Assembly (NCBI RefSeq): GCF_056712565.1
Contig: NZ_CM160072.1
Length of the DNA stretch: 64,000 nt
Strand: one strand, 5' to 3'
Position 1 is the first letter of the stretch. Each line of letters starts with the position of its first letter. Made by a program: the position numbers and the translations under genes. The notes under the pieces are model-generated. The model saw only the letters and a list, made by a program, of their open reading frames with translations, was not told where the DNA came from and did no database searches. Of the stretch, positions 1,764 through 26,301 are shown piece by piece.

Positions 1764-1777
1764 GGTGTTTACTCCGT

Positions 1778-2556: not shown

Positions 2557-2559
2557 GCG

Positions 2560-2763: not shown

Positions 2764-3272
2764 CAGATTTGACTCACGATGCAGCGCGGCTTGTCCTGGA
2801 TGCGCGCCGCTGCCCAGCGCATATCCCGCCACAGCTCATCAATGGTGCTGTCAATGCTGTCGGCCTTCTTGTCTCCTTTCGCACTGGCATCCACGCCGCG
2901 GTAACGCTCATAAAGCGACGCGGTCGCCATCGCACACACGGCGCGCTCGTAGTAAAAAACTTTGATACTTTCACCGTCGATATCGTCCGCCGGAACGTCC
3001 GCCAGACGCGTAAAACCGGCGGCAATTTTCTGTTCGCGGTACTCGTACAGCTCCGCATTTGTTTCCGCCATGCCTGACTTGATGGCCTCACGCAGACGGG
3101 CGGGGGCGACGGTCTGCTCAAGGCGCATACGTTCCCGGACGCGCTTCGGGTCGATATCGGGAAAAAAGAACGTGTTTTTAATCACCGGCTCGTCGCCTGC
3201 CGGTTGCGGGATGACCACCGTACCCTCACCGGACACGGGAGCCTCCTTTCGCGGAATAATCAGCGTCATCAT
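2763..3272 (-). CDS. L: Head completion/stabilisation protein (P2 gpL)
   Basis: 169 aa from ATG at 3272 (MMTLIIPRKEAPVSGEG...). Confidence 0.85.
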   Translation of the reverse strand: MMTLIIPRKEAPVSGEGTVVIPQPAGDEPVIKNTFFFPDIDPKRVRERMRLEQTVAPARLREAIKSGMAETNAELYEYREQKIAAGFTRLADVPADDIDGESIKVFYYERAVCAMATASLYERYRGVDASAKGDKKADSIDSTIDELWRDMRWAAARIQDKPRCIVSQI

Positions 3273-3371
3273 GACTACCTCTGAAAAGTCGGGCGGTGGA
3301 CGCCGGTGCAGTGTCAGGTGATTCACCCTCACTGACCGGCGTGCCGCCCTGGCGCGGGGCGCATTCGGTTG

Positions 3372-4115
3372 TTAACTGGCTTTCTTTTTCGGGCGTCCAC
3401 GTTTTGCCGGTGTCACGCTCCGGGTCTTACGCGTGGCACGGGTGGCCGCTTTGGGTTGCGGCTCCGGCTTAGGTTTCAGCTCCCGCTCCAGTCGCTCAAT
3501 CTCTTTTTTGACGCCTGCCTGACAGTCGAGCTGTGTCGCACGTTGCAGGTGAGCCAGCGCACCGGCGGCATCACCACCGTCACGCAGAAACAGACCGGTG
3601 ATTTTGTGCAGCTTTGCGCGCACTTCATCAGGCATGTCAGCAGCGGCAGTCAGTTCAAGGGTCTCCGTCAGCAGGCGGGTATCCACAGACTCACCGGCCG
3701 CGTGGGCGCGCATGGCCGCGAGCGCGACCTCCTCGGTGAACATATACGGCGGGGTGCGGCGGTGTTTACCCGGCATGGTCAGACCGTATTTCAGGGCATA
3801 ACGGGCAATCTCCAGCGCACCGGCAATATCGCCGGTATCCAGACGCCACAGCATGACCGTCATCAGAATGTCATCCTGTGCGCCTTTGCCCTGCTCCAGC
3901 ACGCCGTTCACCCACGGCAACCAGAACGGCAGCAGTTCGCGCTTTTTCGCGGCCTTCAGCTCTTTTGAATAAATCGCTTTCAGTGTGCGCTGGTCTGCGG
4001 CCAGCTTGACCAGCATCTGCTCATAGACAGTTGCATGTCGCAGCGGGGCGGCTTCCCGCTGCGCGGTCATCGCTGCCGAGACCCGCATCATGTGGCGCTG
4101 TGCGGGACTCGTCAT
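3372..4115 (-). CDS. M: Terminase small (endonuclease) subunit (P2 gpM)
   Basis: 247 aa, between L and N as in P2. Confidence 0.85.
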   Translation of the reverse strand: MTSPAQRHMMRVSAAMTAQREAAPLRHATVYEQMLVKLAADQRTLKAIYSKELKAAKKRELLPFWLPWVNGVLEQGKGAQDDILMTVMLWRLDTGDIAGALEIARYALKYGLTMPGKHRRTPPYMFTEEVALAAMRAHAAGESVDTRLLTETLELTAAADMPDEVRAKLHKITGLFLRDGGDAAGALAHLQRATQLDCQAGVKKEIERLERELKPKPEPQPKAATRATRKTRSVTPAKRGRPKKKAS

Positions 4116-4118
4116 CGG

Positions 4119-5192
4119 TTACGCTCCCGGCTCTGCGGTCGCCTTAGCCGGTGTGGAGAAATCACCGACCTTAATTTTTTCCACCAGACAACCGGCGGCG
4201 TAGTCTTCCACCACGTAATCAATGTTCATTGACTCGTAGTTCTCCACGCGGTCGAGTTTCGGGTTTTCCACAATCACGCGGCGATGGCTGTCATCCATGT
4301 AGTAGATGGACAGGTTTTCCAGCTTCGTGATGAGCATCGCATCCGCCGGGAAGTACGGGACGCGTACCGCCGGCAGGTTACCGATGCGTTTCTGGCTGAT
4401 GATGACGTCAGCGGCCAGCATTTCGCTGTTGTCCTGCTCCTTGTTAACGATGGGGAAATACTTGTCCGCCAGTAGCTGACGCCCCACAATCACCACAAGG
4501 TCAGGGTCTTCCTGATACCACGGTTCAATCAGGTTGTTGGTCGCATCCATCACCAGTGCATCAAGGCTGGCATAATCACCGCCCTTACCCACGCGGATGA
4601 CCTCAGAGGTCGTGTGACCTTCCTCGTCAGTGACCTTGCTCATCACACGCGCCGGGGCTTCATTGCGGTATTTCTGCAGCCAGCCGACCGCCACATCCTG
4701 CAACATCGGATTACTGTTGCGGTCAGAGGTTTCTGCACGCTTCACGCCGTTAAAACCGGCCATGATGAAATCAAGGGACTGGCGTTTGATAATGGCGTTA
4801 CGGATACGGAGCTGGAAATCCTGATAACGCGCCCACAGGTCCAGCGTTTTGTAGCGGATATAAAAATCGAAGTTAATCTGGTCGCATTCGTACTTGTTAG
4901 ACGCCAGCTTCGAGAAGTCCTTCGGCTGACGCTCGGTGCCACCGGCGGTGTCGGTGGTGCTGGCGATGGAGCCGGTGACACCGATACCAATTTTTTCCCC
5001 TTTCATTTCGCTGACCGGCACAATGTTGATGCGGGTCAGAAAGTCAGAGGACTCCTGCATGGTGTTCATCAGGGTCTGGGTGACCGACGGTTCAACGGTG
5101 AATTTTTTCGACACATCACCGGCGTCGATGCCGTTCAGCTCGGCAACACGGGACAGGTAGGCATTAAATTTAAAGCGGGTTTCCTGGCGCAT
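4119..5192 (-). CDS. N: Major capsid protein (P2 gpN)
   Basis: 357 aa, P2 gpN length and position. Confidence 0.9.
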   Translation of the reverse strand: MRQETRFKFNAYLSRVAELNGIDAGDVSKKFTVEPSVTQTLMNTMQESSDFLTRINIVPVSEMKGEKIGIGVTGSIASTTDTAGGTERQPKDFSKLASNKYECDQINFDFYIRYKTLDLWARYQDFQLRIRNAIIKRQSLDFIMAGFNGVKRAETSDRNSNPMLQDVAVGWLQKYRNEAPARVMSKVTDEEGHTTSEVIRVGKGGDYASLDALVMDATNNLIEPWYQEDPDLVVIVGRQLLADKYFPIVNKEQDNSEMLAADVIISQKRIGNLPAVRVPYFPADAMLITKLENLSIYYMDDSHRRVIVENPKLDRVENYESMNIDYVVEDYAAGCLVEKIKVGDFSTPAKATAEPGA

Positions 5193-5250
5193 AGTTTTTC
5201 CTGAAATTAAGGGTTAATCGTGAAGGTTTTCCCGGACTGACTGACGCCGG

Positions 5251-6105
5251 TCAGCAGTTCGTCATCAGGGCGTCACCGCCACCACCGGTGGCCTTGCTGC
5301 GGCGCTGCTGGGTCAGACTTTCGGTGTGGTCGAGACTGTTTTTCAGGCGGGTGAATGCCTGGCTGGTTTCATCCGCCCTGTCAGTCACCTCCTGCTTAAG
5401 TGCGGAAAAGGCGGTTTCCATCTCAGCGAGGCGCTGCTCAGTGGCGCTCAGTTTTTCCTGCACATGTTCAGCAACAGCGGTCACCGCTTCATGCACGTCA
5501 TTCAGACGGGCATCATCGCTGGCCTGTTTGCGGCCAAAAATGGACTTCACCTTTTCGGTCAGGACGGTGAACACTGTTTCAGGCAGGTCTTCAAATTCCA
5601 GCTCAACAGGCGTTGCCACTGAAATCAGGTTTTCAGGGCTTAATTTGAAGCGGTTCAGGGGGTTGTGTTTTGCCGTGCGGCAGAATTCCAGGTATTCCGT
5701 GCCGAGGCTTGCCGGGTCATCGGTGACGGCCAGACCCACCAGATAACATTTGCCGGTGTTGGCAAAGTTCGGCTGAATTTCCATTGAGGTGTAGACCTTC
5801 TGCGCGGCCTTGTTCATCGCGATAAGGTCATCGGTCGGGGTGATTTTCGCAAACAGCGCCCATTTGCCTTTCAGCGCCGAATCATCGTCAATCTTTTCGG
5901 CCTTAAGTTCGGCCACATCGCCATAACGTTTAAAAATACCGTCAGGCAGGATGCCGCGCAGATGTTCCAGGTTAATGCGGCAACCGTAGACACGCGGGTC
6001 AAAGGTTTCAGCCATTTCCTGAATATCCTGCGCACTGATGACACGCCCGTCACAGGTGTCACCCTCAACGCCGATACGAAAGAATTTTGAGACTTTTTTT
6101 GCCAT
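5251..6105 (-). CDS. O: Capsid scaffolding protein (P2 gpO)
   Basis: 284 aa from ATG at 6105 (MAKKVSKFFRIGVEGDTCDGRV...); ORF track start is further upstream. Confidence 0.85.
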   Translation of the reverse strand: MAKKVSKFFRIGVEGDTCDGRVISAQDIQEMAETFDPRVYGCRINLEHLRGILPDGIFKRYGDVAELKAEKIDDDSALKGKWALFAKITPTDDLIAMNKAAQKVYTSMEIQPNFANTGKCYLVGLAVTDDPASLGTEYLEFCRTAKHNPLNRFKLSPENLISVATPVELEFEDLPETVFTVLTEKVKSIFGRKQASDDARLNDVHEAVTAVAEHVQEKLSATEQRLAEMETAFSALKQEVTDRADETSQAFTRLKNSLDHTESLTQQRRSKATGGGGDALMTNC

Positions 6106-6278
6106 TGTCAGGAGTCCTGAATAGTGATTAGAGGAGTCACATGTCGGCATCAGTTTCCCGACGATGCGCATCCTCCGCCATCAGTCCCGGATGGCTTATC
6201 ACTGACACAACAGCACCTTAGCGAATCGCAGGGCGCGACTCAGTAGCCTTGCCGTGTATTCATCACGGCGAGGTATTC
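6106..6278. promoter_or_regulatory. Divergent late-promoter region between O and P (P2 PO/PP, Ogr-activated in P2)
   Basis: Position only; a clean TGT-N12-ACA activator site could not be identified by eye. Confidence 0.35.
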
Positions 6279-8051
6279 ATGACCATCACCACAGACACCA
6301 CTCTTTTACACGACCCGCGTCGTCAGGCGGCGCTGCTGTACTGGCAGGGATTTTCCGTGCCGCAGATTGCCGCCATGTTGCAGATGAAACGCCCGACAGT
6401 GCAGAGCTGGAAACAGCGCGACGGCTGGGACAACGTTGCCCCCATCAGCCGTGTCGAAATGAGCCTGGAAGCGCGGCTGACCCAGCTCATCATCAAACCG
6501 CAGAAAACCGGCGGTGACTTCAAGGAAATTGACCTGCTGGGACGCCAGATTGAACGACTGGCACGGGTAAATCGTTACAGCCAGACCGGCAACGAGGCAG
6601 ACCTTAATCCGAACGTCGCTAACCGCAACAAAGGCGGGCGGCGCAAACCGAAAAAAAATTTTTTCAGTGACGAGGCCATCGAAAAGCTGGAGCAGATTTT
6701 CTTTGAGCAGTCTTTCGACTATCAGTTGCACTGGTATCGCGCCGGGCTTGAGCACCGCATCCGCGATATCCTGAAATCCCGCCAGATTGGCGCGACGTTT
6801 TATTTTTCCCGCGAGGCGCTGCTGCGCGCCCTGAAAACCGGCCATAACCAGATTTTTCTGTCGGCCAGTAAAACGCAGGCGTATGTGTTCCGCGAATACA
6901 TCATCGCCTTTGCCCGGCTGGTTGACGTTGACCTGACCGGTGACCCGATTGTCCTGGGCAATAACGGCGCAAAACTGATTTTTCTCGGCACCAACTCCAA
7001 CACCGCACAGAGCCATAACGGCGACCTGTACGTCGACGAGATTTTCTGGATCCCGAATTTTCAGGTACTGCGTAAGGTGGCATCAGGTATGGCCTCACAG
7101 AGTCACCTGCGCTCGACCTATTTCTCCACCCCGTCCACGCTGGCGCACGACGCCTACCCGTTCTGGTCAGGTGAACTGTTCAACCGGGGACGCGCCAGCG
7201 CCGCCGAACGCGTGGAAATCGACGTCAGTCATAACGCCCTTGCCGGTGGGCTTCTCTGTGCGGACGGCCAGTGGCGGCAGATTGTCACCATTGAGGACGC
7301 CCTGAAAGGTGGCTGCACGCTGTTCGACATTGAACAGCTCAAACGCGAAAACAGCGCCGACGATTTTAAAAACCTGTTCATGTGTGAATTTGTTGACGAC
7401 AAGGCGTCGGTGTTCCCGTTCGAGGAGCTGCAACGCTGCATGGTCGACACGCTGGAAGAATGGGAAGACTATGCGCCGTTTGCCGCCAATCCGTTCGGCT
7501 CCCGCCCGGTCTGGATTGGTTACGACCCGTCACACCGTGGCGACAGCGCCGGATGCGTGGTACTGGCACCGCCGGTGGTGGCCGGTGGCAAATTCAGAAT
7601 ACTTGAGCGTCACCAGTGGAAAGGCATGGACTTTGCCACTCAGGCGGAATCCATCCGCAAACTCACCGAAAAATACAACGTCGAATACATCGGTATTGAT
7701 GCCACCGGCCTCGGTGTCGGCGTGTTCCAGCTCGTGCGCTCGTTCTATCCCGCCGCGCGCGATATCCGCTACACGCCGGAAATGAAAACCGCAATGGTGC
7801 TCAAGGCAAAAGACGTCATCCGCCGTGGCTGTCTGGAATATGACGTCAGCGCCACCGACATCACCAGCTCGTTTATGGCTATCCGCAAGACCATGACCAG
7901 CAGCGGACGCAGCGCCACTTATGAGGCCAGCCGCAGCGAGGAAGCCAGCCACGCCGACCTCGCCTGGGCGACCATGCACGCCCTGTTAAATGAGCCACTC
8001 ACCGCCGGTATCAGCACCCCGCTGACATCCACCATTCTGGAGTTTTACTGA
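6279..8051 (+). CDS. P: Terminase large (ATPase) subunit (P2 gpP)
   Basis: 590 aa from ATG at 6279 preceded by GAGGT; MTITTDTTLLHDPRRQAALLYWQG... Confidence 0.9.
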   Translation: MTITTDTTLLHDPRRQAALLYWQGFSVPQIAAMLQMKRPTVQSWKQRDGWDNVAPISRVEMSLEARLTQLIIKPQKTGGDFKEIDLLGRQIERLARVNRYSQTGNEADLNPNVANRNKGGRRKPKKNFFSDEAIEKLEQIFFEQSFDYQLHWYRAGLEHRIRDILKSRQIGATFYFSREALLRALKTGHNQIFLSASKTQAYVFREYIIAFARLVDVDLTGDPIVLGNNGAKLIFLGTNSNTAQSHNGDLYVDEIFWIPNFQVLRKVASGMASQSHLRSTYFSTPSTLAHDAYPFWSGELFNRGRASAAERVEIDVSHNALAGGLLCADGQWRQIVTIEDALKGGCTLFDIEQLKRENSADDFKNLFMCEFVDDKASVFPFEELQRCMVDTLEEWEDYAPFAANPFGSRPVWIGYDPSHRGDSAGCVVLAPPVVAGGKFRILERHQWKGMDFATQAESIRKLTEKYNVEYIGIDATGLGVGVFQLVRSFYPAARDIRYTPEMKTAMVLKAKDVIRRGCLEYDVSATDITSSFMAIRKTMTSSGRSATYEASRSEEASHADLAWATMHALLNEPLTAGISTPLTSTILEFY

Positions 8052-9085
8052 TGAGCAAGAAAAAAGGGAAAACACCGCAACCTGCGGCAAAAAAAATGAC
8101 CGCCAGCGCCCCGAAAATGGAGGCATTCACCTTTGGTGAGCCGGTGCCGGTACTCGACCGCCGTGACATTCTGGATTACGTCGAGTGCATCAGTAACGGC
8201 AGATGGTATGAGCCGCCGGTCAGCTTTACCGGTCTGGCGAAAAGCCTGCGTGCTGCCGTGCATCACAGCTCACCGATTTACGTTAAACGCAATATTCTGG
8301 CCTCGACATTTATCCCGCATCCGTGGCTTTCGCAACAGGATTTCAGCCGCTTTGTGCTGGATTTTCTGGTGTTCGGTAATGCGTTTCTGGAAAAGCGTTA
8401 CAGCACCACCGGTAAGATCATCAGACTGGAAACCTCACCGGCAAAATATACCCGCCGTGGCGTGGAGGAGGATGTTTACTGGTGGGTGCCGTCCTTCAAC
8501 GAGCCGACACCTTTCGCGCCCGGTTCCGTGTTTCACCTGCTGGAGCCGGATATTAATCAGGAGCTGTACGGCCTGCCGGAATATCTCAGCGCCCTTAACT
8601 CTGCCTGGCTGAATGAGTCGGCCACGCTGTTCCGCCGCAAGTATTACGAAAACGGCGCGCATGCCGGATACATCATGTACGTCACCGATGCCGTGCAGGA
8701 CCGCAACGATATCGAAATGCTTCGCGAAAACATGGTGAAGTCGAAAGGCCGCAATAACTTTAAAAACCTGTTTCTCTATGCCCCACAGGGGAAAGCCGAC
8801 GGCATTAAAATTATCCCGCTCAGTGAAGTGGCGACGAAGGACGATTTTTTTAATATCAAAAAAGCCAGCGCCGTTGACCTGCTGGATGCGCACCGCATCC
8901 CCTTTCAGTTGATGGGCGGCAAGCCGGAAAACGTCGGGTCTCTGGGTGATATTGAGAAAGTGGCAAAGGTCTTTGTCCGCAATGAACTTATCCCGCTACA
9001 GGACAGGATTCGGGAAATAAACGGCTGGCTCGGTCAGGAGGTCATCCGCTTTAAAAACTACTCACTGGACACTGACAACGGCTGA
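8051..9085 (+). CDS. Q: Portal protein (P2 gpQ)
   Basis: 344 aa, ATGA overlap with P stop. Confidence 0.9.
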   Translation: MSKKKGKTPQPAAKKMTASAPKMEAFTFGEPVPVLDRRDILDYVECISNGRWYEPPVSFTGLAKSLRAAVHHSSPIYVKRNILASTFIPHPWLSQQDFSRFVLDFLVFGNAFLEKRYSTTGKIIRLETSPAKYTRRGVEEDVYWWVPSFNEPTPFAPGSVFHLLEPDINQELYGLPEYLSALNSAWLNESATLFRRKYYENGAHAGYIMYVTDAVQDRNDIEMLRENMVKSKGRNNFKNLFLYAPQGKADGIKIIPLSEVATKDDFFNIKKASAVDLLDAHRIPFQLMGGKPENVGSLGDIEKVAKVFVRNELIPLQDRIREINGWLGQEVIRFKNYSLDTDNG

Positions 9086-9090
9086 ACATC

Positions 9091-9112
9091 GCCGCCTGCG
9101 GGCGGCTTTTTT
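9091..9112 (+). terminator. Rho-independent terminator after Q
   Basis: GCCGCC-tgcg-GGCGGC hairpin followed by TTTTTT. Confidence 0.7.
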
Positions 9113-9254
9113 ACACCCCGTCATCACGCCCTCACACGCTCACCACCGCACAAAACACCCCGCAGACACACCAGCGCCTCAACGGGCAGACTAAGCGCCG
9201 TCACGACGCGCTGAGACGCTGAAAAAATAAAATCAGCACCACCGCCAGCGCGCA

Positions 9255-9273
9255 GTGCTTTCCCCGCCTCGCC
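9255..9273. other. P2 cos site (19-nt cohesive-end sequence)
   Basis: gtgctttccccgcctcgcc is the reverse complement of GGCGAGGCGGGGAAAGCAC, the P2 cohesive end as I recall it; about 170 nt downstream of Q as in P2. Confidence 0.6.
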
Positions 9274-9466
9274 CGCCCGCTTCATGGGGCGGTTTTAATG
9301 CAGTTGCATGATGAAACTGAAATCACATCAGCACTGACCGAAACTGACAAAAAGAATAGTATCTGACACATGCAAAAACACGCACTTAATATACGCCTAT
9401 CTATAGCTCCTACAGGATTGTCAAAAAACGACCAACTCGTCATAGCGTAAACACATTTGGCTCAAC

Positions 9467-9565
9467 GAACACTTACGTTATATGCCTCTTGAACATATCA
9501 AAGTCTTAAGGTAGATCTTTACCACTAAGTGGCTATATTAAGCTGCTTTTTTACATACAATAAAA
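9467..9565 (+). promoter_or_regulatory. Putative promoter region of the cargo gene (AT-rich; candidate -10 TATATT 9534-9539 or TACAAT 9556-9561)
   Basis: AT-rich upstream region with -10-like hexamers; no convincing -35; SD GAGG at 9578-9581. Confidence 0.25.
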
Positions 9566-9588
9566 GCTTTATCGTATGAGGCATAAAA

Positions 9589-11805
9589 ATGGAACTTAGA
9601 TTAAAAAATGTTACCAGTTATAAGAAAGACGCCTTCACAATACTGAATCTTGAAAAAAGAGTAAACATACTATACGGCCAAAATGGTTGTGGCAAATCTA
9701 CCATTTCAAATTATTTCTACGACTCTACACACACAGATTATAACGAGTGTGAATGTACCCTTCTTGACAATTACAAACCTCTTGTTTACAACACTAAATT
9801 TATTGAAGATAACTTCTATAATGCACAGGAACAAAAAGGTGTTTTTACATTAAGTAAAGAAAATGCAGATATTGAAAAACAATTAATTGAAAAAGAAGCA
9901 ATTAAACAGCAACTCACAGAGCAATATAGACAAAAAAAAGGAGTGTTATTGAAATTAGAAGCAGAAATGGAAAAAAAAGAAAATGAATACATCGAATCGA
10001 TCTGGAAAAAAACAGAACCAATCAGAAACTCTGTACTAAAAACCTTAATGAAAGGTAAAGTTGGCTATAAAAGACCTTTTTTTGAGATGATAAAATCATC
10101 CTCACCAATCACCTTTATTAATTTAAATGATATAGCAAAAGAATACTCTATACTATTAGAAAATAGAAACAATGAAACCGCATTAATAACTCCTTTACAT
10201 CCATATACCCCATCAATTGATGATGTAAATACATTAGCAACACCTATAATAGATACAAGCAATAGCTATTTATCAGAAACCATTAATAAACTTCATAATC
10301 TTGACTGGGTAAAAAAAGGTAAAGAACATTATTTAGACGGTTCTACATGTCCGTTTTGTCAGGAAAAAACTATTAGTCACGAATTTTTAAATGCCCTTAA
10401 ATCAATATTTGACGAAAGTTATTCAAAGAAAGTAAAACAGCTCTCAGATATAAAGTCAGTTTATGAGAAAAATACCATATATCATTTTAACGAAATACAA
10501 AACAATATATCATCATGTGCACTAATCAATGAGAAAGATAAAGAGAACATTATTTCCAATATTAAAATATTGCAAAACATTGCAGAAAAAAATTTAATAA
10601 ACATTATTGATAAGATCAACAATCCATCAACATGCGTTACATTAGAAATTGATAAAGAACTAGAAAATCATGTTCAGGAAAGCATAGGCGCTGTTAACAA
10701 GAAAATAAGAGACATAAATGATAAGGTTAAAAAACTCAAAGAGTATGAGAATAAAATCGGAAAACAAGTTTGGGGGGCTCTCCATGCTTTTTGCAGCGAT
10801 GATTTAGAGAATTTATCCAAACACAAAGAAAAATTCTTTGATATCAAAAAGAAAGTTCATGATGAATTAAATAATATTGAGCAACAAGGAAAAGAAAATA
10901 ATCTCACAATAAAAGCATTGCGAGATAAAATATCTAACATTGATTCTACGATAGACTCAATAAACACCCATTTAAAAAATCTAGGGATCTCTGGTTTTTG
11001 TATTGAAAAACATGCAGAAAGAAAAGATATGTACATTATATCTCGACCAGGGCATACAAAAAACCAAAATGTTTATAGATCTCTTAGCGAAGGTGAAAAA
11101 ACACTAATAACGTTTCTTTATTTTTTAGAGTGCTGTAAAGGTAAAACCGATAAAAATGATACCGATAGCAGGGATATTTTTATTGTTATTGACGATCCAA
11201 TATCTAGTCTATCGCAAAACTATGTCTACGACATCGCATCAATTATTCATCACCACATTATAAAAAATGAATTAACAAAGAAGGTATTAATCCTTACTCA
11301 CAATCTTTATTTCTTTCATGAACTTATTAAGCTATCTCCTAAAAGCAGAGAAGACAAACTATTTAAGAAAAACTATTATCTAGGTAGAGTAACGAAAAAT
11401 GATTTTAGTATAATTACTGAAATACAAAAAAACAGCATACAGAATGAATATCAATCTTTGTGGCAAATATTAAAAGATGCAAAAGATGGCAAAGCAAACA
11501 AAATCATAATACCGAATATTATGAGAAACATACTAGAATATTATTTTGCATTTGTTCATAGAACAGATGCTCTACAAGATGAATTAACAAAGTTGGCACG
11601 CGACGATAGCAACAGTGATTTCAAAGCATTCTACAGATACATTAACAGAGGTTCTCACTCTGATGCGGTAAATATTACTGATATGGGCGACATAGACCCA
11701 GATAAATACCTAAAACAATTGAGAACAATATTTTCAGCTACTGGTGACGAAATGCATTATTTAAAAATGATGGACGAACTAGAAGAGGAAAACGTTACCG
11801 CTTAG
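9589..11805 (+). CDS. ABC-type ATPase with coiled-coil/zinc-hook insertion and C-terminal effector-like domain; RloC/PrrC-like candidate anticodon nuclease (stand-alone defence gene)
   Basis: 738-aa ORF; Walker A GQNGCGKST, CPFC in a K/E/N-rich insert, LSEGEK signature, IFIVIDDP Walker B, LILTHN H-loop, C-terminal RNILE...H; strongly AT-rich relative to flanking prophage; sits in the P2 cos-A accessory position. Confidence 0.55.
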   Translation: MELRLKNVTSYKKDAFTILNLEKRVNILYGQNGCGKSTISNYFYDSTHTDYNECECTLLDNYKPLVYNTKFIEDNFYNAQEQKGVFTLSKENADIEKQLIEKEAIKQQLTEQYRQKKGVLLKLEAEMEKKENEYIESIWKKTEPIRNSVLKTLMKGKVGYKRPFFEMIKSSSPITFINLNDIAKEYSILLENRNNETALITPLHPYTPSIDDVNTLATPIIDTSNSYLSETINKLHNLDWVKKGKEHYLDGSTCPFCQEKTISHEFLNALKSIFDESYSKKVKQLSDIKSVYEKNTIYHFNEIQNNISSCALINEKDKENIISNIKILQNIAEKNLINIIDKINNPSTCVTLEIDKELENHVQESIGAVNKKIRDINDKVKKLKEYENKIGKQVWGALHAFCSDDLENLSKHKEKFFDIKKKVHDELNNIEQQGKENNLTIKALRDKISNIDSTIDSINTHLKNLGISGFCIEKHAERKDMYIISRPGHTKNQNVYRSLSEGEKTLITFLYFLECCKGKTDKNDTDSRDIFIVIDDPISSLSQNYVYDIASIIHHHIIKNELTKKVLILTHNLYFFHELIKLSPKSREDKLFKKNYYLGRVTKNDFSIITEIQKNSIQNEYQSLWQILKDAKDGKANKIIIPNIMRNILEYYFAFVHRTDALQDELTKLARDDSNSDFKAFYRYINRGSHSDAVNITDMGDIDPDKYLKQLRTIFSATGDEMHYLKMMDELEEENVTA

Positions 11806-11833
11806 GCCGCATATTATCGTTTTGGGTAAGAAC

Positions 11834-11853
11834 GACGGTGCTTACGCACCGTC
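11834..11853. terminator. Hairpin downstream of cargo gene (possible weak or bidirectional terminator)
   Basis: GACGGTGC-ttac-GCACCGTC perfect 8-bp stem; no clear T-run. Confidence 0.3.
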
Positions 11854-12028
11854 TCCCAACGCCCAAAGCGGTAGCGGTTGTACTGGCGTACATTCACTAG
11901 CTTTAACATGAGGCAATCTCCATGCCAGCACTATTGTTGCCAATAGCAGCCTTTATACCCTTTGTACAAAGCTAATACCAAGAGTAATGCAAAGTAGATG
12001 TCCCAAGCGGTAACGGGGCTATTCTATG

Positions 12029-14320
12029 TCAAACACAGAAAAAATCAAAGCGCCCTATGAATCCCCCCCAACCATCAGCGACCGGATACGTGAATTTTTT
12101 CCCGTCATAATTTACGGTCGCTCCACGCGCCAGCGCCTCAAGCTCCCATCGCTGCGGCATGATACCGTTCTGAGCAAGGTCAACGCGGATACGGGTGATT
12201 TGCAATCGTTCAGACCTGGTCAGTCTGGCAGATGGTGCAATTTCATGCGGTTTTAACGGGCTTCCGTTTCTTTGCTGACGGTTTGGCGTTCTCAGGTCGT
12301 ATTTTAATGCGCCCCTGAGCGCCCTCACGACCTCCGGTTCATTCCATTCAATAACACCGTCATCAACCAGATTAAGCACTGCTGCGGCGTGCTCAGAAGG
12401 TGTGGGAGCCGGTAACGAAGTATCACCACCGGTGAGCTTTCCACAGTTATTGACAGGACTCCGAGGCGCGGCGATGCCGCTTTTTAAAGTCAAAGGCTCA
12501 ACGACCGGAACTTTCGGCACAATGCGCCAGTCCGTCGTTCTGGTGATATGAATATGACGCGCGCCGAGATGCGGCGCGTAAATGCCGACCACTCTCTCGA
12601 CTTCTTCCTCGTACTCGTTAACGTCATCCGACGGGCTACGGGCAACCCTGACAGTCTGACAATCGCGCGGGACATTTGCCCCACCCTGCGCGCTGATATA
12701 CAACGCAAAATCACCACTGTCTGCGGCAGCGCGAGCAGCCTCGACGCGTTCGTCAAACTCATCAGCAATACTGACGCCGCGAGGCAATTTGCGTAGTTCA
12801 CGGTAAGCCCCCATTGTCGGCAGGCCAACCGTTTTAAATTGCGGAATTCGCCACGTTGACGCCCATGCGGTAACAGCCGCAGCAGTATCTTTCAGCGGCC
12901 TGCCGGTATCATTATCGAGCTGACCATCCAGTGCATAGCCATCGATGTTTTTTGAGATGTATTTTGCGATATACCCCGCAGCACCGCCCCGGTTAAGATG
13001 TTTTGCCTGAAAACGGTTTCGCGCGGCTCCTCTTTCGTCGCCATCCTCTTTGAGCGCATAGCGACGCATGATTTCGATAATCTGGTTACGCTGGCGTGGA
13101 TTACAAAAAAGCATCATATGCCAGTGCGGCGTTCCGTCGTGGTGTGGCTCGACGACACGCAAACCGTAGACCTGTAAATCATTATCCTTGAATGCCGTGC
13201 GCATCAGGCTCCAGATATGGCAGAGATAACGCTGCGCATCCTTTGGATTAAATGCCTCATCGTTCCAGCCGTGATTTAGCTGGACGGTTTTACTTTCGCC
13301 TTTTCCGACCTGACGTGTCGGGTGATACTTTGACGGCGCGGTAAGCGTGATAAACATCCCCACATCACCCTCTGCGGCGGCGTAACGCTCAATACCGGCA
13401 ATGGTGTTCATCAGCTCCATCCGGCGAATTTCAGGATTAGAAATACTGCCCATCACCTTACTGATAAGGTCGATGCGTTCGCCGGTTTCCCTGTTTTCAA
13501 GGTCACACGATTTAAGAAATTCCAGATTTGCCTGGCGGCGTGCACGCACATCACGAATGGCATGTTTACTGGCATAAGGTGAACGGTCTTTATTGACCTC
13601 CCCGACAGCAATCAGTAACGCCTCATGCCAGCGCATACGCTGGCCTTTAAGCTGACTAATCCACCACTCATCGTTAAACAGGCGGGCAATGGCAGAATAT
13701 GCCTGCCTCGTGGTCATCTGTCCTTTACGGTATTTTTTCCAGTAGAGCGGGGAAATATTGAAAGCACGTGCAGCGCCAGCAACATGACCATAGAGGTGAG
13801 CCTGCGCCTCATCCGTAAACAGCGATTCTTTTTCGCCATGCGCATCCACCCAGGCATCGCAGAGTTCCTCATACATCATGAAAAGCTGCGATGAGATACG
13901 GGCGGCAAACTTTTTCAGCTCCTTATCATTCATCCCCGGCAGACGCGCATAATGGTCACGCTCTGCCAGAAACAGCAACGACGCGTCGGTGTTCATTTCA
14001 TGGCGCTGATTCACACGCTCAATGCGCGGCCATAAACGACGCTGAAAAGTGGATGTGAGGAAATAAAACCCGTGCACCGGGCTTTTATTGCGCCGGATGT
14101 AGTCATAGCGTGAAGTAAACAGCGAGCGCAAAAAGTAAGGCAGGCGGTTAATCGTGGATAAAACACCTTGCACCTGACGCATCTCGTCACGTGTAAGGGG
14201 TCTTTCGCGCCCGACGGCCTCGCGTGGCGCGTTCCATGCATAAGCACCGGTAAACGTCTTACCGGTGCCTGCGGTAAATGCTGACGGAGGGACAAAACGC
14301 CCGGAGGCTTTAACGGCCAT
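12029..14320 (-). CDS. A: Replication initiation (rolling-circle nicking) protein (P2 gpA)
   Basis: Long ORF; start taken at ATG 14320 (MAVKASGRFVPPSAF...) rather than the ORF-track start at 14362. Confidence 0.9.
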   Translation of the reverse strand: MAVKASGRFVPPSAFTAGTGKTFTGAYAWNAPREAVGRERPLTRDEMRQVQGVLSTINRLPYFLRSLFTSRYDYIRRNKSPVHGFYFLTSTFQRRLWPRIERVNQRHEMNTDASLLFLAERDHYARLPGMNDKELKKFAARISSQLFMMYEELCDAWVDAHGEKESLFTDEAQAHLYGHVAGAARAFNISPLYWKKYRKGQMTTRQAYSAIARLFNDEWWISQLKGQRMRWHEALLIAVGEVNKDRSPYASKHAIRDVRARRQANLEFLKSCDLENRETGERIDLISKVMGSISNPEIRRMELMNTIAGIERYAAAEGDVGMFITLTAPSKYHPTRQVGKGESKTVQLNHGWNDEAFNPKDAQRYLCHIWSLMRTAFKDNDLQVYGLRVVEPHHDGTPHWHMMLFCNPRQRNQIIEIMRRYALKEDGDERGAARNRFQAKHLNRGGAAGYIAKYISKNIDGYALDGQLDNDTGRPLKDTAAAVTAWASTWRIPQFKTVGLPTMGAYRELRKLPRGVSIADEFDERVEAARAAADSGDFALYISAQGGANVPRDCQTVRVARSPSDDVNEYEEEVERVVGIYAPHLGARHIHITRTTDWRIVPKVPVVEPLTLKSGIAAPRSPVNNCGKLTGGDTSLPAPTPSEHAAAVLNLVDDGVIEWNEPEVVRALRGALKYDLRTPNRQQRNGSPLKPHEIAPSARLTRSERLQITRIRVDLAQNGIMPQRWELEALARGATVNYDGKKFTYPVADGWGGFIGRFDFFCV

Positions 14321-14585
14321 ATGAGCCAAAAGCCTCTGAACAACGCTTGCTGAGTTGCTCAACCTGCGCGTTTAAATCAGCAAAAGACTTTGCGCTTCCG
14401 GTCAGAATATCGTGATGCATCAGGCCGGAAACGAGCTGGCTTAATTTCGGGTAATAACCAACCACCGCCAGCCATTCCTGACCGGCGTTTTTACCGCTTT
14501 CCGCTCTCTTTTTCTCGTGGAGAATAAACTGAAAGCTGTCACTGGTAACGACATAACGTTCGCCAATTTCAATACGAATACTCAT
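14310..14585 (-). CDS. P2 early-operon small protein (orf80-83 family)
   Basis: 91-aa ORF immediately upstream of A. Confidence 0.6.
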   Translation of the reverse strand: MSIRIEIGERYVVTSDSFQFILHEKKRAESGKNAGQEWLAVVGYYPKLSQLVSGLMHHDILTGSAKSFADLNAQVEQLSKRCSEAFGSYGR

Positions 14586-14806
14586 GCCGTTCTCCGGTAA
14601 TGTTTGTTTTTTGCTTCAAAGACTGACTGACAGGAAACACAACGCGTGGCTGACGGATAAGCCGCACGACGGGCAGCAGGTATTGGCGCGTCACACTCTT
14701 CGCAAACCAGCGCAGAAGCACCGCAATGTTTTACCCTTGCCGCGTTAATCTGGCGCTCCAGTAATTCAGCCTGTTGTTCCTGAATAAAATCTACGTTGTC
14801 CGGCAT
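14582..14806 (-). CDS. TraR/DksA-type C4 zinc-finger protein of the P2 early operon
   Basis: 74 aa with C-x2-C ... C-x2-C (CEEC ... CVSC). Confidence 0.7.
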   Translation of the reverse strand: MPDNVDFIQEQQAELLERQINAARVKHCGASALVCEECDAPIPAARRAAYPSATRCVSCQSVFEAKNKHYRRTA

Positions 14807-14808
14807 TA

Positions 14809-15111
14809 TCAGCTCCTTTTATCGTTAAGTTTCCTGGATACATCAGCGCAATAACTGGCAAGTTCTGTCGTTAATTTTGTCAGTTCATCCACTGAGGAAA
14901 TTTGCTTGTGGAATACAGCGCGTTTAACAAGTAAATTGACCACATCAGACAGGAGGTTTAATTCATTCTGATAAATCGCGATAACAGATTCAGTGATGTC
15001 GCGTTTTTCTTTATCAAGACAAAGTTGAATAAGAGACAAATCGCCATTTTTCATAACGGCGATTTTTAAGGCGTTATTCAGTAATACAACTGAATGAGAA
15101 CAGGACATCAA
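14809..15111 (-). CDS. P2 early-operon small protein, hypothetical
   Basis: 100-aa ORF, tightly packed in early operon. Confidence 0.6.
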
Positions 15112-15332
15112 AGTACCTCCCCGCGAGACAATCCGATATTGTGAAATTTTTCCGACTCCTGACTGAGCAGCTCGACTATCTCCACGCGGGATAACTCCGC
15201 CTTTGTGATATGGCGAATCATGGCGTCAAGATGAGAAGAAAAGCGCGTCGCAGCGTCGGCCTGTGCTTCGGTTCTGGCCTGTTGCAGCAGTAATGCGTAT
15301 TTACCGCACTGATTTTCAGAAACTGTATGCAT
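15108..15332 (-). CDS. P2 early-operon small protein, hypothetical
   Basis: 74-aa ORF, overlapping stop/start with neighbour. Confidence 0.6.
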
Positions 15333-15395
15333 GACTTTCTCCGGGCAAAAAGAAGCCCCGCACGATTAAGCGCGTTAAAAACTCTGGTTAATTAC

Positions 15396-15902
15396 TTAAT
15401 GCAGATATTGCTCTGGTTTTACCGACGTCAGAATTGTCGGTGCATACTCAAACAGACTGAATAATTCACGTAATGCACGGAATAAAGCATCACGCCAGTA
15501 ACATGATTCCTCATTAATTCGCCAGTATGGCTGGTTAAATTCTTTTTCTGTCAGTCGTGCGTGCATAAATAAAGTGCGACGCTGACTGACTGTTAAAAAA
15601 CTAATATATGCATACTCACTTGCGCCAACCTGACGGCGTTTTGAGAATGCCCCACGCAACTCATCAATTGCACATACCAGTCGTTCACGTTCGACGTCGT
15701 TCATTTCTTCAAAACGCATCGTTGCGTGACGCTGTTTTAACTGCGCATGAAAGCAAACCGTTAGCCGTTCGCGCTCCATCATCTGATTATAATAATCACA
15801 TGTATCCTGCCAGCGAGGAACGGCAAGATGCTTACCAATTATCCGGCGCATAGCTGCTGGCTGTTTTTCAACGAGATTGAGCGTCATCACTGTCATTTCC
15901 AT
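15396..15902 (-). CDS. B: Replication protein B
   Basis: 168-aa ORF (possible real start at 15896, MTVMTLNL...); P2 position between cox and the small ORFs. Confidence 0.8.
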   Translation of the reverse strand: MEMTVMTLNLVEKQPAAMRRIIGKHLAVPRWQDTCDYYNQMMERERLTVCFHAQLKQRHATMRFEEMNDVERERLVCAIDELRGAFSKRRQVGASEYAYISFLTVSQRRTLFMHARLTEKEFNQPYWRINEESCYWRDALFRALRELFSLFEYAPTILTSVKPEQYLH

Positions 15903-16063
15903 ACCCTCCGGCTTTTCAGAAAGGTCAGAGCCTTTTTTAACGGACTCTGTTTTTTGGTGCGGATAATGATTCCCTTACGCCCCTTACCGTGGGTGATGGT
16001 GAAGTCAATCGCCCTGGGGCTTTCGTTACGCAATAACTGAGCAATACAACGAGGCTCGTTCAT
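15893..16063 (-). CDS. P2 orf78-like small protein
   Basis: 56 aa from ATG 16063 preceded by AAGGAG; lies between cox and B. Confidence 0.5.
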   Translation of the reverse strand: MNEPRCIAQLLRNESPRAIDFTITHGKGRKGIIIRTKKQSPLKKALTFLKSRRVWK

Positions 16064-16073
16064 ACGGTTCTCC

Positions 16074-16349
16074 TTAACGTGGTTCACCGAGACCTAACCA
16101 CATCAACCAGCCGTCACGAATCTCTTTAGGGCGGCTTTCATAAGCCAGTTTTAGTCCGTTATTCCATGCCGGAAGGTATACCCAATATTCACCTGCACGA
16201 CCTGAAGCTGATTGTGGATCGGTCATATCAATTACAGGCAGCTTTCCTTTATCGATCATCCGACGAACCGCTCCTGTCGATTTTCCTATTAGTTTTGCGA
16301 ACTCCTGATAAGGAATCGCATCAGTCATGAGTGTTACTTGCTTGCTCAT
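16074..16349 (-). CDS. cox: Cox (excisionase / transcriptional regulator)
   Basis: 91 aa, divergent from C. Confidence 0.85.
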   Translation of the reverse strand: MSKQVTLMTDAIPYQEFAKLIGKSTGAVRRMIDKGKLPVIDMTDPQSASGRAGEYWVYLPAWNNGLKLAYESRPKEIRDGWLMWLGLGEPR

Positions 16350-16463
16350 GTCGTCCCCCAGCCCTCATGAATTGCGTTTAATGCCTTATAATGCCTTTTA
16401 GTGCCCACATCCAAGCACTAAACAATCTACATCTAAACTAAATACCATTGAGATCTAAACACC
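16350..16463. promoter_or_regulatory. P2 immunity switch: Pe/Pc promoter region with two direct-repeat operator half-sites ATCTAAAC (16431-16438 and 16453-16460)
   Basis: Two identical 8-mers spaced 22 bp between divergent cox and C; TATAAT at 16386-16391. Confidence 0.5.
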
Positions 16464-16763
16464 ATGTCAAACACGATAAGCGAGAAGATAGTCTTAATGC
16501 GAAAATCAGAGTATTTGAGCAGACAACAACTTGCTGATTTAACAGGGGTTCCGTATGGCACGCTGAGTTACTATGAAAGTGGTCGTTCAACACCTCCAAC
16601 AGATGTCATGATGAACATCCTGCAGACCCCACAATTCACCAAATACACTTTATGGTTCATGACCAATCAGGTCGCTCCTGAGTCCGGGCAAATTGCGCCC
16701 GCTCTCGCACACTTTGGGCAAAACGAAACAACGTCGCCCCACTCCGGTCAAAAGACTGGTTAA
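16464..16763 (+). CDS. C: Immunity repressor C
   Basis: 99 aa MSNTISEKIVLMRKSEYLSRQQLADLTGVPYGTLSYYESG..., helix-turn-helix. Confidence 0.9.
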   Translation: MSNTISEKIVLMRKSEYLSRQQLADLTGVPYGTLSYYESGRSTPPTDVMMNILQTPQFTKYTLWFMTNQVAPESGQIAPALAHFGQNETTSPHSGQKTG

Positions 16764-16878
16764 CAATTTATCGTGAATATATTCATCACAAGTGCCTACT
16801 ATTGGTGGCTAAATTTCAGCCACCACGAAAAAAGCGATTAGTAGTAGCAAAAAAAAGTACCACTCGGAGGGTTTTCTG

Positions 16879-17892
16879 ATGGCAATCAAAAAACTCGATG
16901 ATGGTCGATATGAAGTGGACATCCGCCCTACTGGACGTAACGGAAAACGCATCCGTAGGAAGTTTGATAAGAAAAGCGAAGCTGTCGCTTTCGAAAAATA
17001 CACGTTGTACAACCACCACAATAAAGAATGGCTATCAAAACCAACAGACAAACGACGTCTGTCGGAACTGACACAGATCTGGTGGGATTTAAAGGGTAAA
17101 CACGAAGAGCATGGGAAATCTAATCTTGGAAAAATTGAAATCTTCACAAAAATAACGAATGACCCATGCGCATTTCAAATCACGAAATCCCTTATCAGCC
17201 AGTACTGCGCCACCCGAAGAAGCCAGGGTATTAAACCTTCGAGTATCAATCGTGATTTAACATGTATTAGCGGCATGTTTACAGCCCTGATTGAAGCGGA
17301 GTTATTCTTTGGTGAGCACCCTATCAGAGGGACAAAGAGGCTTAAGGAGGAAAAACCAGAAACAGGCTATCTCACACAGGAAGAAATTGCCTTACTGCTT
17401 GCAGCACTTGACGGCGACAATAAAAAGATTGCGATTCTTTGCCTGAGTACAGGAGCACGTTGGGGAGAAGCAGCTCGTTTGAAAGCAGAAAATATCATCC
17501 ATAACCGCGTCACGTTTGTTAAAACGAAAACAAACAAACCACGCACCGTCCCGATTTCAGAGGCTGTTGCCAAAATGATCGCGGATAACAAACGAGGTTT
17601 TTTATTCCCTGATGCTGATTACCCTCGCTTCAGACGAACAATGAAAGCAATAAAACCGGATTTGCCAATGGGGCAAGCCACACATGCACTAAGGCACAGC
17701 TTTGCCACTCATTTCATGATTAATGGAGGAAGTATTATCACGCTACAACGGATACTAGGTCACACGCGGATTGAGCAAACTATGGTTTACGCTCATTTTG
17801 CGCCAGAGTACCTTCAGGACGCCATTTCTCTTAATCCGCTAAGAGGTGGTACTGAGGCCGAGAGTGTCCACACAGTGTCCACAGTAGAGTAA
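16879..17892 (+). CDS. int: Tyrosine integrase
   Basis: 337 aa with C-terminal R...H-x-x-R...Y catalytic signature (HALRHSFATH ... MVYAHF). Confidence 0.95.
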   Translation: MAIKKLDDGRYEVDIRPTGRNGKRIRRKFDKKSEAVAFEKYTLYNHHNKEWLSKPTDKRRLSELTQIWWDLKGKHEEHGKSNLGKIEIFTKITNDPCAFQITKSLISQYCATRRSQGIKPSSINRDLTCISGMFTALIEAELFFGEHPIRGTKRLKEEKPETGYLTQEEIALLLAALDGDNKKIAILCLSTGARWGEAARLKAENIIHNRVTFVKTKTNKPRTVPISEAVAKMIADNKRGFLFPDADYPRFRRTMKAIKPDLPMGQATHALRHSFATHFMINGGSIITLQRILGHTRIEQTMVYAHFAPEYLQDAISLNPLRGGTEAESVHTVSTVE

Positions 17893-17971
17893 CGTTTAAG
17901 GGCTTTCAGTGGTAATTTATGCCGCTCAAACCCGCATTGTACCGTTGAAAGCCCCTACTGGTGACACCCTA

Positions 17972-17998
17972 AATCTCCCTTACACGGGCTTATTTTTT
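17972..17998. other. P2 att core (prophage end, int-proximal)
   Basis: aatctcccttacacgggcttatttttt is the reverse complement of the 27-nt P2 core AAAAAATAAGCCCGTGTAAGGGAGATT as I recall it; 80 nt downstream of int. Confidence 0.55.
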
Positions 17999-18326
17999 AT
18001 GCATAAGCCCTATCCCTGGTCACCGTCTTCCATTGACCACATCGATAGAATCCTCCTTCATAGCACGATGCTTTTCACTTATCGACATCGTGCTCGCACA
18101 GGTTCCGGTTACGCACAGCCAGAACGCGCATGTTTGACGCTTACCAAAAAATGAACCTAAAGCATTGGAACATTTTTGACATCATTTTCTGATGGCTGCA
18201 TAAAATAAAAATTCTGCTTTAGTTTCATCTATCTGTTTGTCATTATTACTCACATTCAATAATGGTGTTGAAGAATATCCCATCACAGATAAAATAAATA
18301 TGTGCATGGTAGTCTTGAATCTATTC

Positions 18327-18644
18327 TCACTCTCCACATTTGAATGTCAGACGAGCGACGCCATGTAATCCTGCACCTTCTGTCTTCAGGTCAACTATCT
18401 GCATTTTTTTGCCCTGAGTAACACAGAAATGAACTGCATCATTTTTTACTATATTTTCTGCACCAGATATTCTACCCCTGGCTAAAGAAGCTTCGGCTTC
18501 GGTGTAGTATTGGTTATCGAGTTTACGCTGAATATTACTTTTATATGCAAGACCAAATTTACCGATACTTGTCTCATCATTATGTACAGCACACCCAGAC
18601 ATAAGAAAAACACTAATTAATGATATAGCAGCTATCTTTTTCAT
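18327..18644 (-). CDS. yegR: Lipoprotein YegR
   Basis: 105 aa from ATG 18644 with SD; signal peptide and lipobox MSGC. Confidence 0.6.
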   Translation of the reverse strand: MKKIAAISLISVFLMSGCAVHNDETSIGKFGLAYKSNIQRKLDNQYYTEAEASLARGRISGAENIVKNDAVHFCVTQGKKMQIVDLKTEGAGLHGVARLTFKCGE

Positions 18645-19059: not shown

Positions 19060-19959
19060 ATGGCAGAATTTCCCGCCAGCTTACTGATTCTTAATGGCAA
19101 AAGTACTGACAATCTACCCTTGCGCGAAGCAATTATGCTGTTGCGTGAGGAAGGAATGACGATCCATGTGCGGGTCACCTGGGAGAAAGGCGATGCCGCA
19201 CGATATGTAGAGGAGGCACGGAAGTTGGGCGTCGCAACGGTGATTGCCGGTGGTGGCGATGGCACCATTAATGAAGTTTCTACGGCGTTGATTCAGTGTG
19301 AGGGGGATGACATACCCGCGCTGGGAATTTTACCATTAGGAACCGCCAATGATTTTGCCACCAGTGTAGGGATTCCTGAGGCACTGGATAAGGCGCTGAA
19401 ACTGGCAATTGCCGGTAACGCCATTGCGATAGATATGGCGCAGGTCAATAAACAAACCTGTTTTATTAATATGGCGACAGGCGGATTTGGGACGCGTATT
19501 ACCACAGAAACGCCGGAAAAATTAAAAGCCGCGCTGGGTGGCGTCTCTTACATCATTCATGGCTTAATGCGCATGGATACTCTGCAACCGGACCGTTGTG
19601 AGATCCGCGGTGAAAACTTTCACTGGCAAGGTGACGCCCTGGTCATTGGTATTGGTAACGGGCGTCAGGCCGGTGGCGGTCAACAATTGTGCCCGAACGC
19701 ATTAATTAACGATGGCTTGCTGCAACTGCGCATTTTTACCGGCGATGAAATTATTCCGACTCTCGTATCAACCTTAAAATCTGACGAAGATAACCCGAAT
19801 ATTATCGAAGGTGCTTCGTCGTGGTTTGATATACAAGCCCCACACGAAATCACTTTTAATCTTGATGGCGAACCGTTGAGTGGGCAAAACTTCCATATTG
19901 AAATACTTCCGGCGGCGTTGCGTTGTCGATTACCACCAGATTGTCCATTGTTGCGTTAA
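19060..19959 (+). CDS. yegS: Lipid kinase YegS
   Basis: 299 aa with DAG-kinase-like GGDGT motif. Confidence 0.9.

Positions 19960-24143: not shown

Positions 24144-26301
<2,158 letters not shown>

What the first reader, a model, noticed from the sequence alone, without database searches (positions are those of the whole stretch)
17972..17998. P2 att core adjacent to yegR defines the integration locus
The 27-nt P2 core lies 80 nt downstream of int and is followed by backbone genes yegR-yegS-gat. From memory, K-12 carries only a P2 remnant (ogrK, yegZ) at this locus next to yegR, so this strain would hold an apparently complete prophage where K-12 has a decayed one.
Basis: partly seen in the sequence, partly recalled or inferred. 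Interest (0 to 1): 0.35.

Follow-up and report, generated by a model that had tools for sequence, protein, structure and literature searches.

The report
P2 prophage end at cyaR site

Summary

- **The core.** Window 17972-17998 (AATCTCCCTTACACGGGCTTATTTTTT) occurs once in the window. It is 27/27 identical to the annotated attP core of phage P2.
- **The phage side.** It lies 79 nt after an integrase that is 100% identical in protein to P2 Int. The P2 P' arm and Cox-binding region are intact.
- **The host side.** Homology to P2 stops at base 17999. The host sequence continues into yegR, yegS and the gat genes, exactly as at the empty site of strain UTI89.
- **The other end.** It lies outside the window. 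In E. coli SF-468, identical to the window over the 20.3 kb compared, a 33.2-kb prophage runs from here to a second core copy (25/27) next to ogr, cyaR and yegQ. That prophage has every essential P2 gene at full length and a cos site.
- **K-12.** It keeps only cyaR-core-ogrK-yegZ plus 18 nt of this junction's core.

Two refinements:
- The core is the last 27 nt of the sRNA gene cyaR (half its terminator). Integration rebuilds cyaR at the far end.
- The far copy differs at core positions 13 and 15, an allele typical of P2-like att sites in other enterobacteria. Its origin is unresolved.

The parts
1..17998 (.). Int-proximal 18 kb of a P2-type (Peduovirus) prophage: S' (cut by the window start), R, lysCBA, K, Y, X, L, M, N, O, P, Q, cos, cargo, A, orf83-80, B, orf78, cox, C, int, attL.
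   Evidence: tblastn of P2 proteins gave 89-100% aa identity at full length for the genes in the window. The stretch is 100% identical to the SF-468 prophage.
9255..9273 (-). P2 cos 19-nt cohesive-end sequence GGCGAGGCGGGGAAAGCAC.
   Evidence: Exact match to cosL/cosR of AF063097.
9589..11805 (+). Cargo gene in the old/tin slot: 738-aa AAA_13 ATPase, PADLOC candidate defence family PDC-S06.
   Evidence: PADLOC E=1.3e-254. Pfam AAA_13 E=2e-111. P2 old, tin and orf91 are absent.
16074..16349 (-). cox, the excision directionality factor and Pc repressor.
   Evidence: 100% aa identity to P2 Cox.
16464..16763 (+). C immunity repressor.
   Evidence: 99% aa identity to P2 gpC.
16879..17892 (+). int, a tyrosine integrase transcribed toward the core.
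   Evidence: 337 aa, 100% aa identity to P2 Int.
17858..17884 (.). P' arm Int-binding site, with the direct repeats AGTGTCCACA x2 at 17863-17883.
   Evidence: Mapped from the P2 annotation. 0 mismatches to P2 over 17850-17998. The direct repeat was found. It fits the P2-type arm consensus tgTGGaCa (PMC3448106).
17882..17955 (.). Cox-binding region of attP, retained in attL.
   Evidence: Mapped from the P2 annotation. Identical to P2.
17972..17998 (.). 27-nt att core, the int-proximal junction copy (attL in the P2 prophage-map convention). It is a duplicate of the last 27 nt of cyaR.
17999..18326 (.). Host flank between the core and yegR. It includes a 169-nt AT-rich stretch (18153-18321) that K-12 lacks.
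   Evidence: The 45-50 bases compared immediately after the core are identical to the UTI89 empty site. Over the whole 827-nt empty-site construct UTI89 differs at only two positions, the two core bases.
18327..18644 (-). yegR, a host backbone gene.
   Evidence: RefSeq annotation of the identical SF-468 sequence.
19060..19959 (+). yegS, a host backbone gene.

Best explanation
Window 17972-17998 is the integrase-proximal junction (attL) of a P2-type prophage integrated at P2's preferred E. coli attachment site, the 3' end of the sRNA gene cyaR (ryeE) between yegQ/trhP and yegR.

How it works:
- P2 Int is a tyrosine recombinase. With host IHF it recombined the 27-nt attP core with the identical 27 nt of the chromosome.
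- Those 27 nt are the loop, the 3' half of the stem and the U-tract of the CyaR terminator.
- The core is therefore duplicated. The far copy, next to ogr, completes cyaR. The copy in the window is an orphan 3' fragment flanked by the phage P' arm and Cox sites on one side and by yegR on the other.
- Excision would need Int, IHF and Cox acting on this junction and its partner.

Shown here: sequence identity, flanks, the partner copy, the empty site, the K-12 remnant, and an intact cyaR. Inferred from published P2 biology: the recombination chemistry and the protein requirements.
For: - The core is unique in the window and 27/27 identical to the annotated P2 attP.
- Window 17850-17998, covering the P' arm, Cox sites and core, has 0 mismatches to P2.
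- Int is 100% identical in protein to P2 Int.
- Phage homology ends at 17999.
- The right flank is identical to the empty site of UTI89, which has a single core preceded by cyaR.
- In SF-468, which has 0 mismatches to the window over 20,325 nt, the partner core lies at L002 35566-35592. It is flanked by the P arm, IHF region and ogr on one side and by cyaR-yegQ on the other.
- The prophage there is 33,238 bp, with all essential P2 genes at full length and a cos site.
- Rfam CyaR (RF00112) scores 100.7 bits at the empty site and 100.2 bits in the lysogen. The core overlaps the last ~24 positions of the model. In K-12 the annotated cyaR 3' end coincides with the core end.
- 716 of 5,426 complete E. 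coli genomes cover at least 80% of a 6-kb query spanning this int-core-yegR junction.
- ryeE is cited in the literature as a known phage target (PMC3603311). The 1992 paper on P2 attachment sites and the K-12 remnant is cited in PMC3091744.
Against: - The partner copy is outside the window. It was seen only in proxy genomes, although these are identical to the window where they overlap.
- The partner matches 25/27, not 27/27.
- No experiment here shows that this prophage can excise or form plaques.
- The name 'locI' for this site rests on my memory of Barreiro & Haggard-Ljungquist 1992, which I could not read.
Confidence: 0.95

Rival explanations
1. The junction is real, but the prophage is a locked-in or defective fossil rather than a live phage. 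It would look full-length yet be unable to excise or grow, for example because the two junction cores differ at two central positions or because of point defects.
For: - The attL and attR cores differ at positions 13 and 15. Tyrosine recombinases are generally sensitive to heterology in the overlap region (general knowledge).
- The same prophage carries an ISEc12 insertion in the type strain ATCC 11775, so decay has begun in some hosts.
- K-12 shows the end state of such decay.
Against: - All essential P2 genes are full length at 84-100% aa identity. Gene H, the lowest, aligns to P2 only over its first 207 residues.
- cos is intact, and Int and Cox are 100% identical to P2.
- The P' arm and Cox sites are identical to P2.
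- P2 is reported to use more than 10 different loci in E. coli (PMC3091744).
Confidence: 0.2
2. The 27-mer is a chance or unrelated sequence, for example just a host terminator, and is not a recombination junction.
For: The sequence is indeed part of a host terminator (cyaR) at the empty site.
Against: - Here it is preceded by phage sequence, not by the cyaR body. No CyaR match was found in the window.
- No match appeared in 100 shuffles.
- The break in phage homology falls exactly at its end.
- A partner copy and an empty site both exist.
Confidence: 0.01
3. Sub-question: the two-base difference in the partner core arose by mutation or gene conversion after integration, rather than arriving with the phage's attP.
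For: - All six distinct sequenced phages with this int and attP region (ten records) have the canonical core. The best match to the reconstructed variant attP is 98.1%.
- The exact variant junction is confined to about 24 E. coli records.
Against: - The changes are clustered: core positions 13 and 15, plus a third change 9 nt further into the P arm.
- The same core allele is standard at cyaR/P2-like att sites in hosts whose yegQ is 83-85% identical to E. coli.
- No empty E. coli site carries the allele.
Confidence: 0.45

Closest known systems
Bacteriophage P2 attP x attB site-specific recombination at the cyaR-yegR site. Source papers: Yu, Bertani & Haggard-Ljungquist 1989; Barreiro & Haggard-Ljungquist 1992 (citations seen; papers not read). 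I recall the site being called locI.
   Same: Identical 27-nt core, identical Int protein, identical P' arm and Cox sites, and the same chromosomal interval.
   Different: - The cargo genes differ from reference P2. PDC-S06 replaces old/tin, and fun(Z) and orf30 are absent.
- The P-arm/IHF region resembles P2_4C9 and P2_2H1 more than P2.
- The partner core has two substitutions.
E. coli K-12 cryptic prophage PR-X (ogrK, yegZ).
   Same: Same integration site and the same ogr-side junction: cyaR, core, P arm, ogr.
   Different: K-12 has lost everything from mid-D to core position 9 of the int-side junction. About 0.63 kb is left, against 33.2 kb here. This K-12-type deletion junction is found in 357 of 5,426 genomes.
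Prophage integration into the 3' ends of small structured RNA genes. Examples: phage 186 in a tRNA-Ile gene, Fels-2 and SopE-phi in ssrA, and phages at ryeB/sdsR in Salmonella (PMC3448106, PMC3603311, PMC3333887).
   Same: The core duplicates the 3' end of an RNA gene, so the gene stays intact after insertion. CyaR scores 100.2 bits in the lysogen, and its terminator folds at -15.8 kcal/mol against -15.5 at the empty site.
   Different: The target is an Hfq-type sRNA terminator rather than a tRNA or tmRNA. Only 27 nt are duplicated.

Membership tests
P2 attL junction (int-proximal prophage/host junction) | The core sequence is identical to the P2 attP core. | tested here: met
   27/27 against AF063097 24356-24382. 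Unique in the window.
P2 attL junction (int-proximal prophage/host junction) | The P' arm Int-binding repeats and the Cox-binding region lie on the phage side of the core. | tested here: met
   0 mismatches to P2 over 17850-17998. AGTGTCCACA direct repeats at 17863-17883.
P2 attL junction (int-proximal prophage/host junction) | A P2-type tyrosine integrase gene is adjacent and reads toward the core. | tested here: met
   int at 16879-17892 (+), 100% aa identity to P2 Int.
P2 attL junction (int-proximal prophage/host junction) | Phage homology stops at the core, and the host flank equals the flank of an unoccupied site. | tested here: met
   The P2 alignment ends at 17999. The UTI89 empty site has an identical right flank.
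P2 attL junction (int-proximal prophage/host junction) | A partner core copy lies at the other prophage end, flanked by the P arm, IHF site and ogr. | tested here: met
   Found outside the window in SF-468, which is identical to the window over 20,325 nt. It lies at L002 35566-35592 and matches 25/27.
P2 attL junction (int-proximal prophage/host junction) | Int, IHF and Cox-dependent excision regenerates attP and attB. | not testable with these tools
   Needs PCR or a plaque assay on the strain.
Complete P2-like (Peduovirus) prophage | All essential P2 genes are present as full-length ORFs, and cos is present. | tested here: met
   37 of 42 P2 proteins were found at full length. H diverges after residue 207, as tail fibres often do. 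Only the non-essential orf30, fun(Z), orf91, tin and old are missing. cos is an exact match. About half of the prophage lies outside the window.
Complete P2-like (Peduovirus) prophage | The prophage produces infectious particles. | not testable with these tools
Integration into the 3' end of the sRNA gene cyaR/ryeE | The core overlaps the 3' end of cyaR at the unoccupied site. | tested here: met
   Rfam RF00112 at L003 639-724 with the core at 701-727. In K-12, cyaR b4438 ends at the last base of the core.
Integration into the 3' end of the sRNA gene cyaR/ryeE | The RNA gene is reconstituted in the lysogen. | tested here: met
   A full-length CyaR match of 100.2 bits lies next to the ogr-side junction. 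The terminator hairpin is kept. Expression was not tested.

The most novel reading that the evidence does not exclude
The mismatch between the two junction cores, canonical ACACGG here and ACGCAG at the ogr side, may be a natural recombination footprint. On this reading a P2-type phage carried the core allele of other enterobacterial genera when it entered this E. coli lineage. The segregation of the two marker bases then places strand exchange, or heteroduplex resolution, to the left of core position 13 in window orientation. That would be an in vivo map of the P2 crossover and a record of cross-genus phage movement.
Probability: 0.4. Interest if true: 0.25.

Novelty: already known. Interest (0 to 1): 0.1.

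Why it matters
Mostly as annotation. It fixes one prophage boundary to the base and identifies the element as a P2 prophage at its classical site. It also explains the difference from K-12, which has the decayed version.

Two practical points follow:
- The site is the terminator of the regulatory RNA CyaR, so prophage calls and sRNA annotation at this locus should be made together.
- The prophage carries a candidate anti-phage gene (PDC-S06) in the known P2 cargo hotspot.

None of this changes current understanding.

Tried and rejected
- **Second core copy inside the window.** None was found even with 3 mismatches. This is expected, because the window starts in gene S.
- **CyaR at the window copy.** There was no Rfam match at gathering or at E<=10. 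This copy is only the 27-nt tail.
- **Variant partner core as a host attB allele.** Rejected. No complete E. coli genome matched the variant-bearing empty-site construct at 100% (best 99.8%), and UTI89 has the canonical core.
- **Sequenced phages with the variant attP.** None was found. All six distinct phages have the canonical core. In IMG/VR the variant occurs only at prophage/host junctions, mostly in other genera.
- **Window copy as an intrinsic terminator for int.** No terminator-like site was called, and the fold is weak at -9.7 kcal/mol.
- **Census of empty, occupied and remnant sites.** It is only approximate. The 80%-coverage counts are confounded by the 169-nt indel near yegR and by the tool joining nearby pieces.
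- **Primary P2 att papers.** Yu 1989, Yu & Haggard-Ljungquist 1993 and De Lay & Gottesman 2009 are not held in the library.

Full report
**Observation**

Window 17972-17998 reads AATCTCCCTTACACGGGCTTATTTTTT. It is the only match in the 64-kb window even with three mismatches allowed, and no match appeared in 100 dinucleotide-preserving shuffles.

A 1.7-kb query around it aligns at 98.9% to phage P2 (AF063097). The alignment stops at window 17999, one base past the core. In the P2 record the same 27 bases are annotated 'attP' (24356-24382), with the Int core-binding site over them.

The integrase ORF is 16879-17892 (+), so 79 nt separate its stop codon from the core.

**The phage side**

- tblastn of all P2 proteins shows that Int is 100% identical to P2 Int. 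Cox is also 100% identical and C is 99% identical.
- Window 17850-17998 has no mismatch to P2. By the P2 annotation this stretch holds the P' arm Int site, the Cox-binding region and the core.
- The P' arm direct repeats (AGTGTCCACA twice, 17863-17883) were found independently. They fit the P2-type arm consensus given in PMC3448106.
- The window begins inside gene S. It carries S'-R-lysCBA-K-Y-X-L-M-N-O-P-Q, the exact 19-nt cos sequence (9255-9273), a cargo gene, A, orf83-80, B, orf78, cox, C and int.

**The host side**

To the right of the core come yegR (18327-18644, -), yegS (19060-19959, +), an intact gatR, gatDCBAZY, fbaB and the rest of the backbone.

**The other end, the empty site and K-12**

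- *Closest genome.* The window is identical to E. coli SF-468 (NZ_CP012625.1) over the 20,325 nt compared. It is 99.99% identical over the remaining backbone.
- *Other end of the prophage.* In SF-468 the prophage continues to D and ogr and ends at a second core copy, L002 35566-35592. That copy is followed by cyaR and yegQ. Core to core the element is 33,238 bp.
- *Gene content.* All essential P2 genes are full length. Only the non-essential orf30, fun(Z), orf91, tin and old are missing.
- *Empty site.* A construct made from the two host flanks matches many ST95-type genomes end to end. UTI89 has cyaR, one canonical core and the same right flank as the window.
- *K-12 MG1655.* It has cyaR, a canonical core, the P arm, ogrK and the yegZ (D') pseudogene. 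These are followed by the last 18 nt of the int-side core and then yegR. K-12 therefore holds the same insertion after a deletion running from mid-D to core position 9.
- *Frequencies.* The K-12-type deletion junction occurs in 357 of 5,426 complete genomes. The int-core-yegR arrangement of the window covers at least 80% of a 6-kb query in 716 genomes.

**What the site is**

- Rfam places CyaR/RyeE (RF00112, 100.7 bits) at the empty site. Its last ~24 model positions lie inside the core.
- In K-12 the annotated cyaR gene ends on the last base of the core.
- The core is therefore the loop, the 3' half of the stem and the U-tract of the CyaR terminator.
- In the lysogen a full-length CyaR match (100.2 bits) sits at the ogr-side junction. 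The window copy gives no CyaR match at all.
- Integration thus duplicates the sRNA's 3' end and keeps the gene whole, as with tRNA- and tmRNA-targeting phages.
- That ryeE is a phage target is already in the literature (PMC3603311). The P2 sites and the K-12 remnant were described in 1992 (citation seen; paper not readable here).

**Mechanism**

The shown steps are the sequence relationships above. The inferred steps come from established P2 biology. Int with IHF recombines attP with attB. Excision needs Cox as well, and its binding sites are retained next to this junction. Nothing here tests whether this particular prophage is active.

**One small unexplained detail**

- The partner core differs at positions 13 and 15 (ACACGG becomes ACGCAG). 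There is a third change 9 nt further into the P arm.
- Both alleles keep an 11-bp terminator stem, at -15.5 and -15.8 kcal/mol.
- The variant is not a host allele in E. coli. No empty site carries it.
- No sequenced phage with this attP carries it either.
- It is, however, the usual allele at cyaR/P2-like junctions in hosts whose yegQ is only 83-85% identical to E. coli. In those hosts the cyaR 5' stem is GCCTGCGT.
- Only about 24 E. coli records have the exact variant junction.
- It either came in with the phage's attP or arose later by conversion. If it came with the phage, strand exchange lay to the left of core position 13 in window orientation. I cannot decide between the two.

**Verdict**

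This is a correctly identified junction of a P2 prophage at its classical site. It is useful for annotation, already known, and of low interest.

Noticed in passing
window 9589-11805 (+): A 738-aa AAA_13 ATPase sits in the P2 old/tin cargo slot between cos and gene A. It matches the PADLOC candidate defence family PDC-S06 (E=1.3e-254), with weaker PrrC, LmuB and AriA similarity. P2's own old, tin and orf91 are absent.
   Followed up: partly
L002 26596-28529 (SF-468, outside the window): The second P2 cargo slot (Z/fun) holds a DUF5677 protein, a 194-aa tyrosine-recombinase fragment and a hypothetical gene instead of fun(Z).
   Followed up: no
window 53549-53638 (-) and 53884-53957 (+): A zor-orz type I toxin-antitoxin locus lies in an unannotated gap between yehL and yehK. 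It consists of a 29-aa ORF (MDTLTQKLTVLIAVLELLVALLRLIDLLK) and an OrzO-P antitoxin RNA (Rfam 91.5 bits).
   Followed up: partly
window 34343-34439 (-): A TPP riboswitch (Rfam 71.2 bits) lies upstream of thiM-thiD. This is ordinary.
   Followed up: no
window 18153-18321: A 169-nt AT-rich stretch between the att core and yegR is present here but absent from K-12. It overlaps a weak, sub-threshold STnc410 match (18148-18272, 21.5 bits against a gathering score of 50).
   Followed up: partly
window 20041-20820 (-): gatR is intact here (259 aa). In K-12 MG1655 it is split by IS3E.
   Followed up: no
L004 4813-4830 (K-12 MG1655): K-12 retains the last 18 nt of the int-side core (TACACGGGCTTATTTTTT), joined to the D' fragment through a 3-nt overlap. 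This marks the deletion that produced the PR-X remnant. The same junction occurs in 357 of 5,426 complete genomes.
   Followed up: yes
L002 35566-35592 (partner core, outside the window): The ogr-side core differs at two central bases from the window copy and from the empty site of sister strains. The variant is the normal allele at the same site in other enterobacterial genera. Its origin is unresolved.
   Followed up: partly
NZ_CP033092.2 (E. coli type strain ATCC 11775), region matching window 1-18100: The same prophage is interrupted by an IS21-like ISEc12 element in the type strain. The match is split into two pieces spanning 20.7 kb instead of 18.1 kb.
   Followed up: no
window ~45100-55000 (yehI, yehK, yehM): RefSeq flags yehI, yehK and yehM as frameshifted in the near-identical SF-468 sequence. 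I did not check whether the window shares the frameshifts.
   Followed up: no
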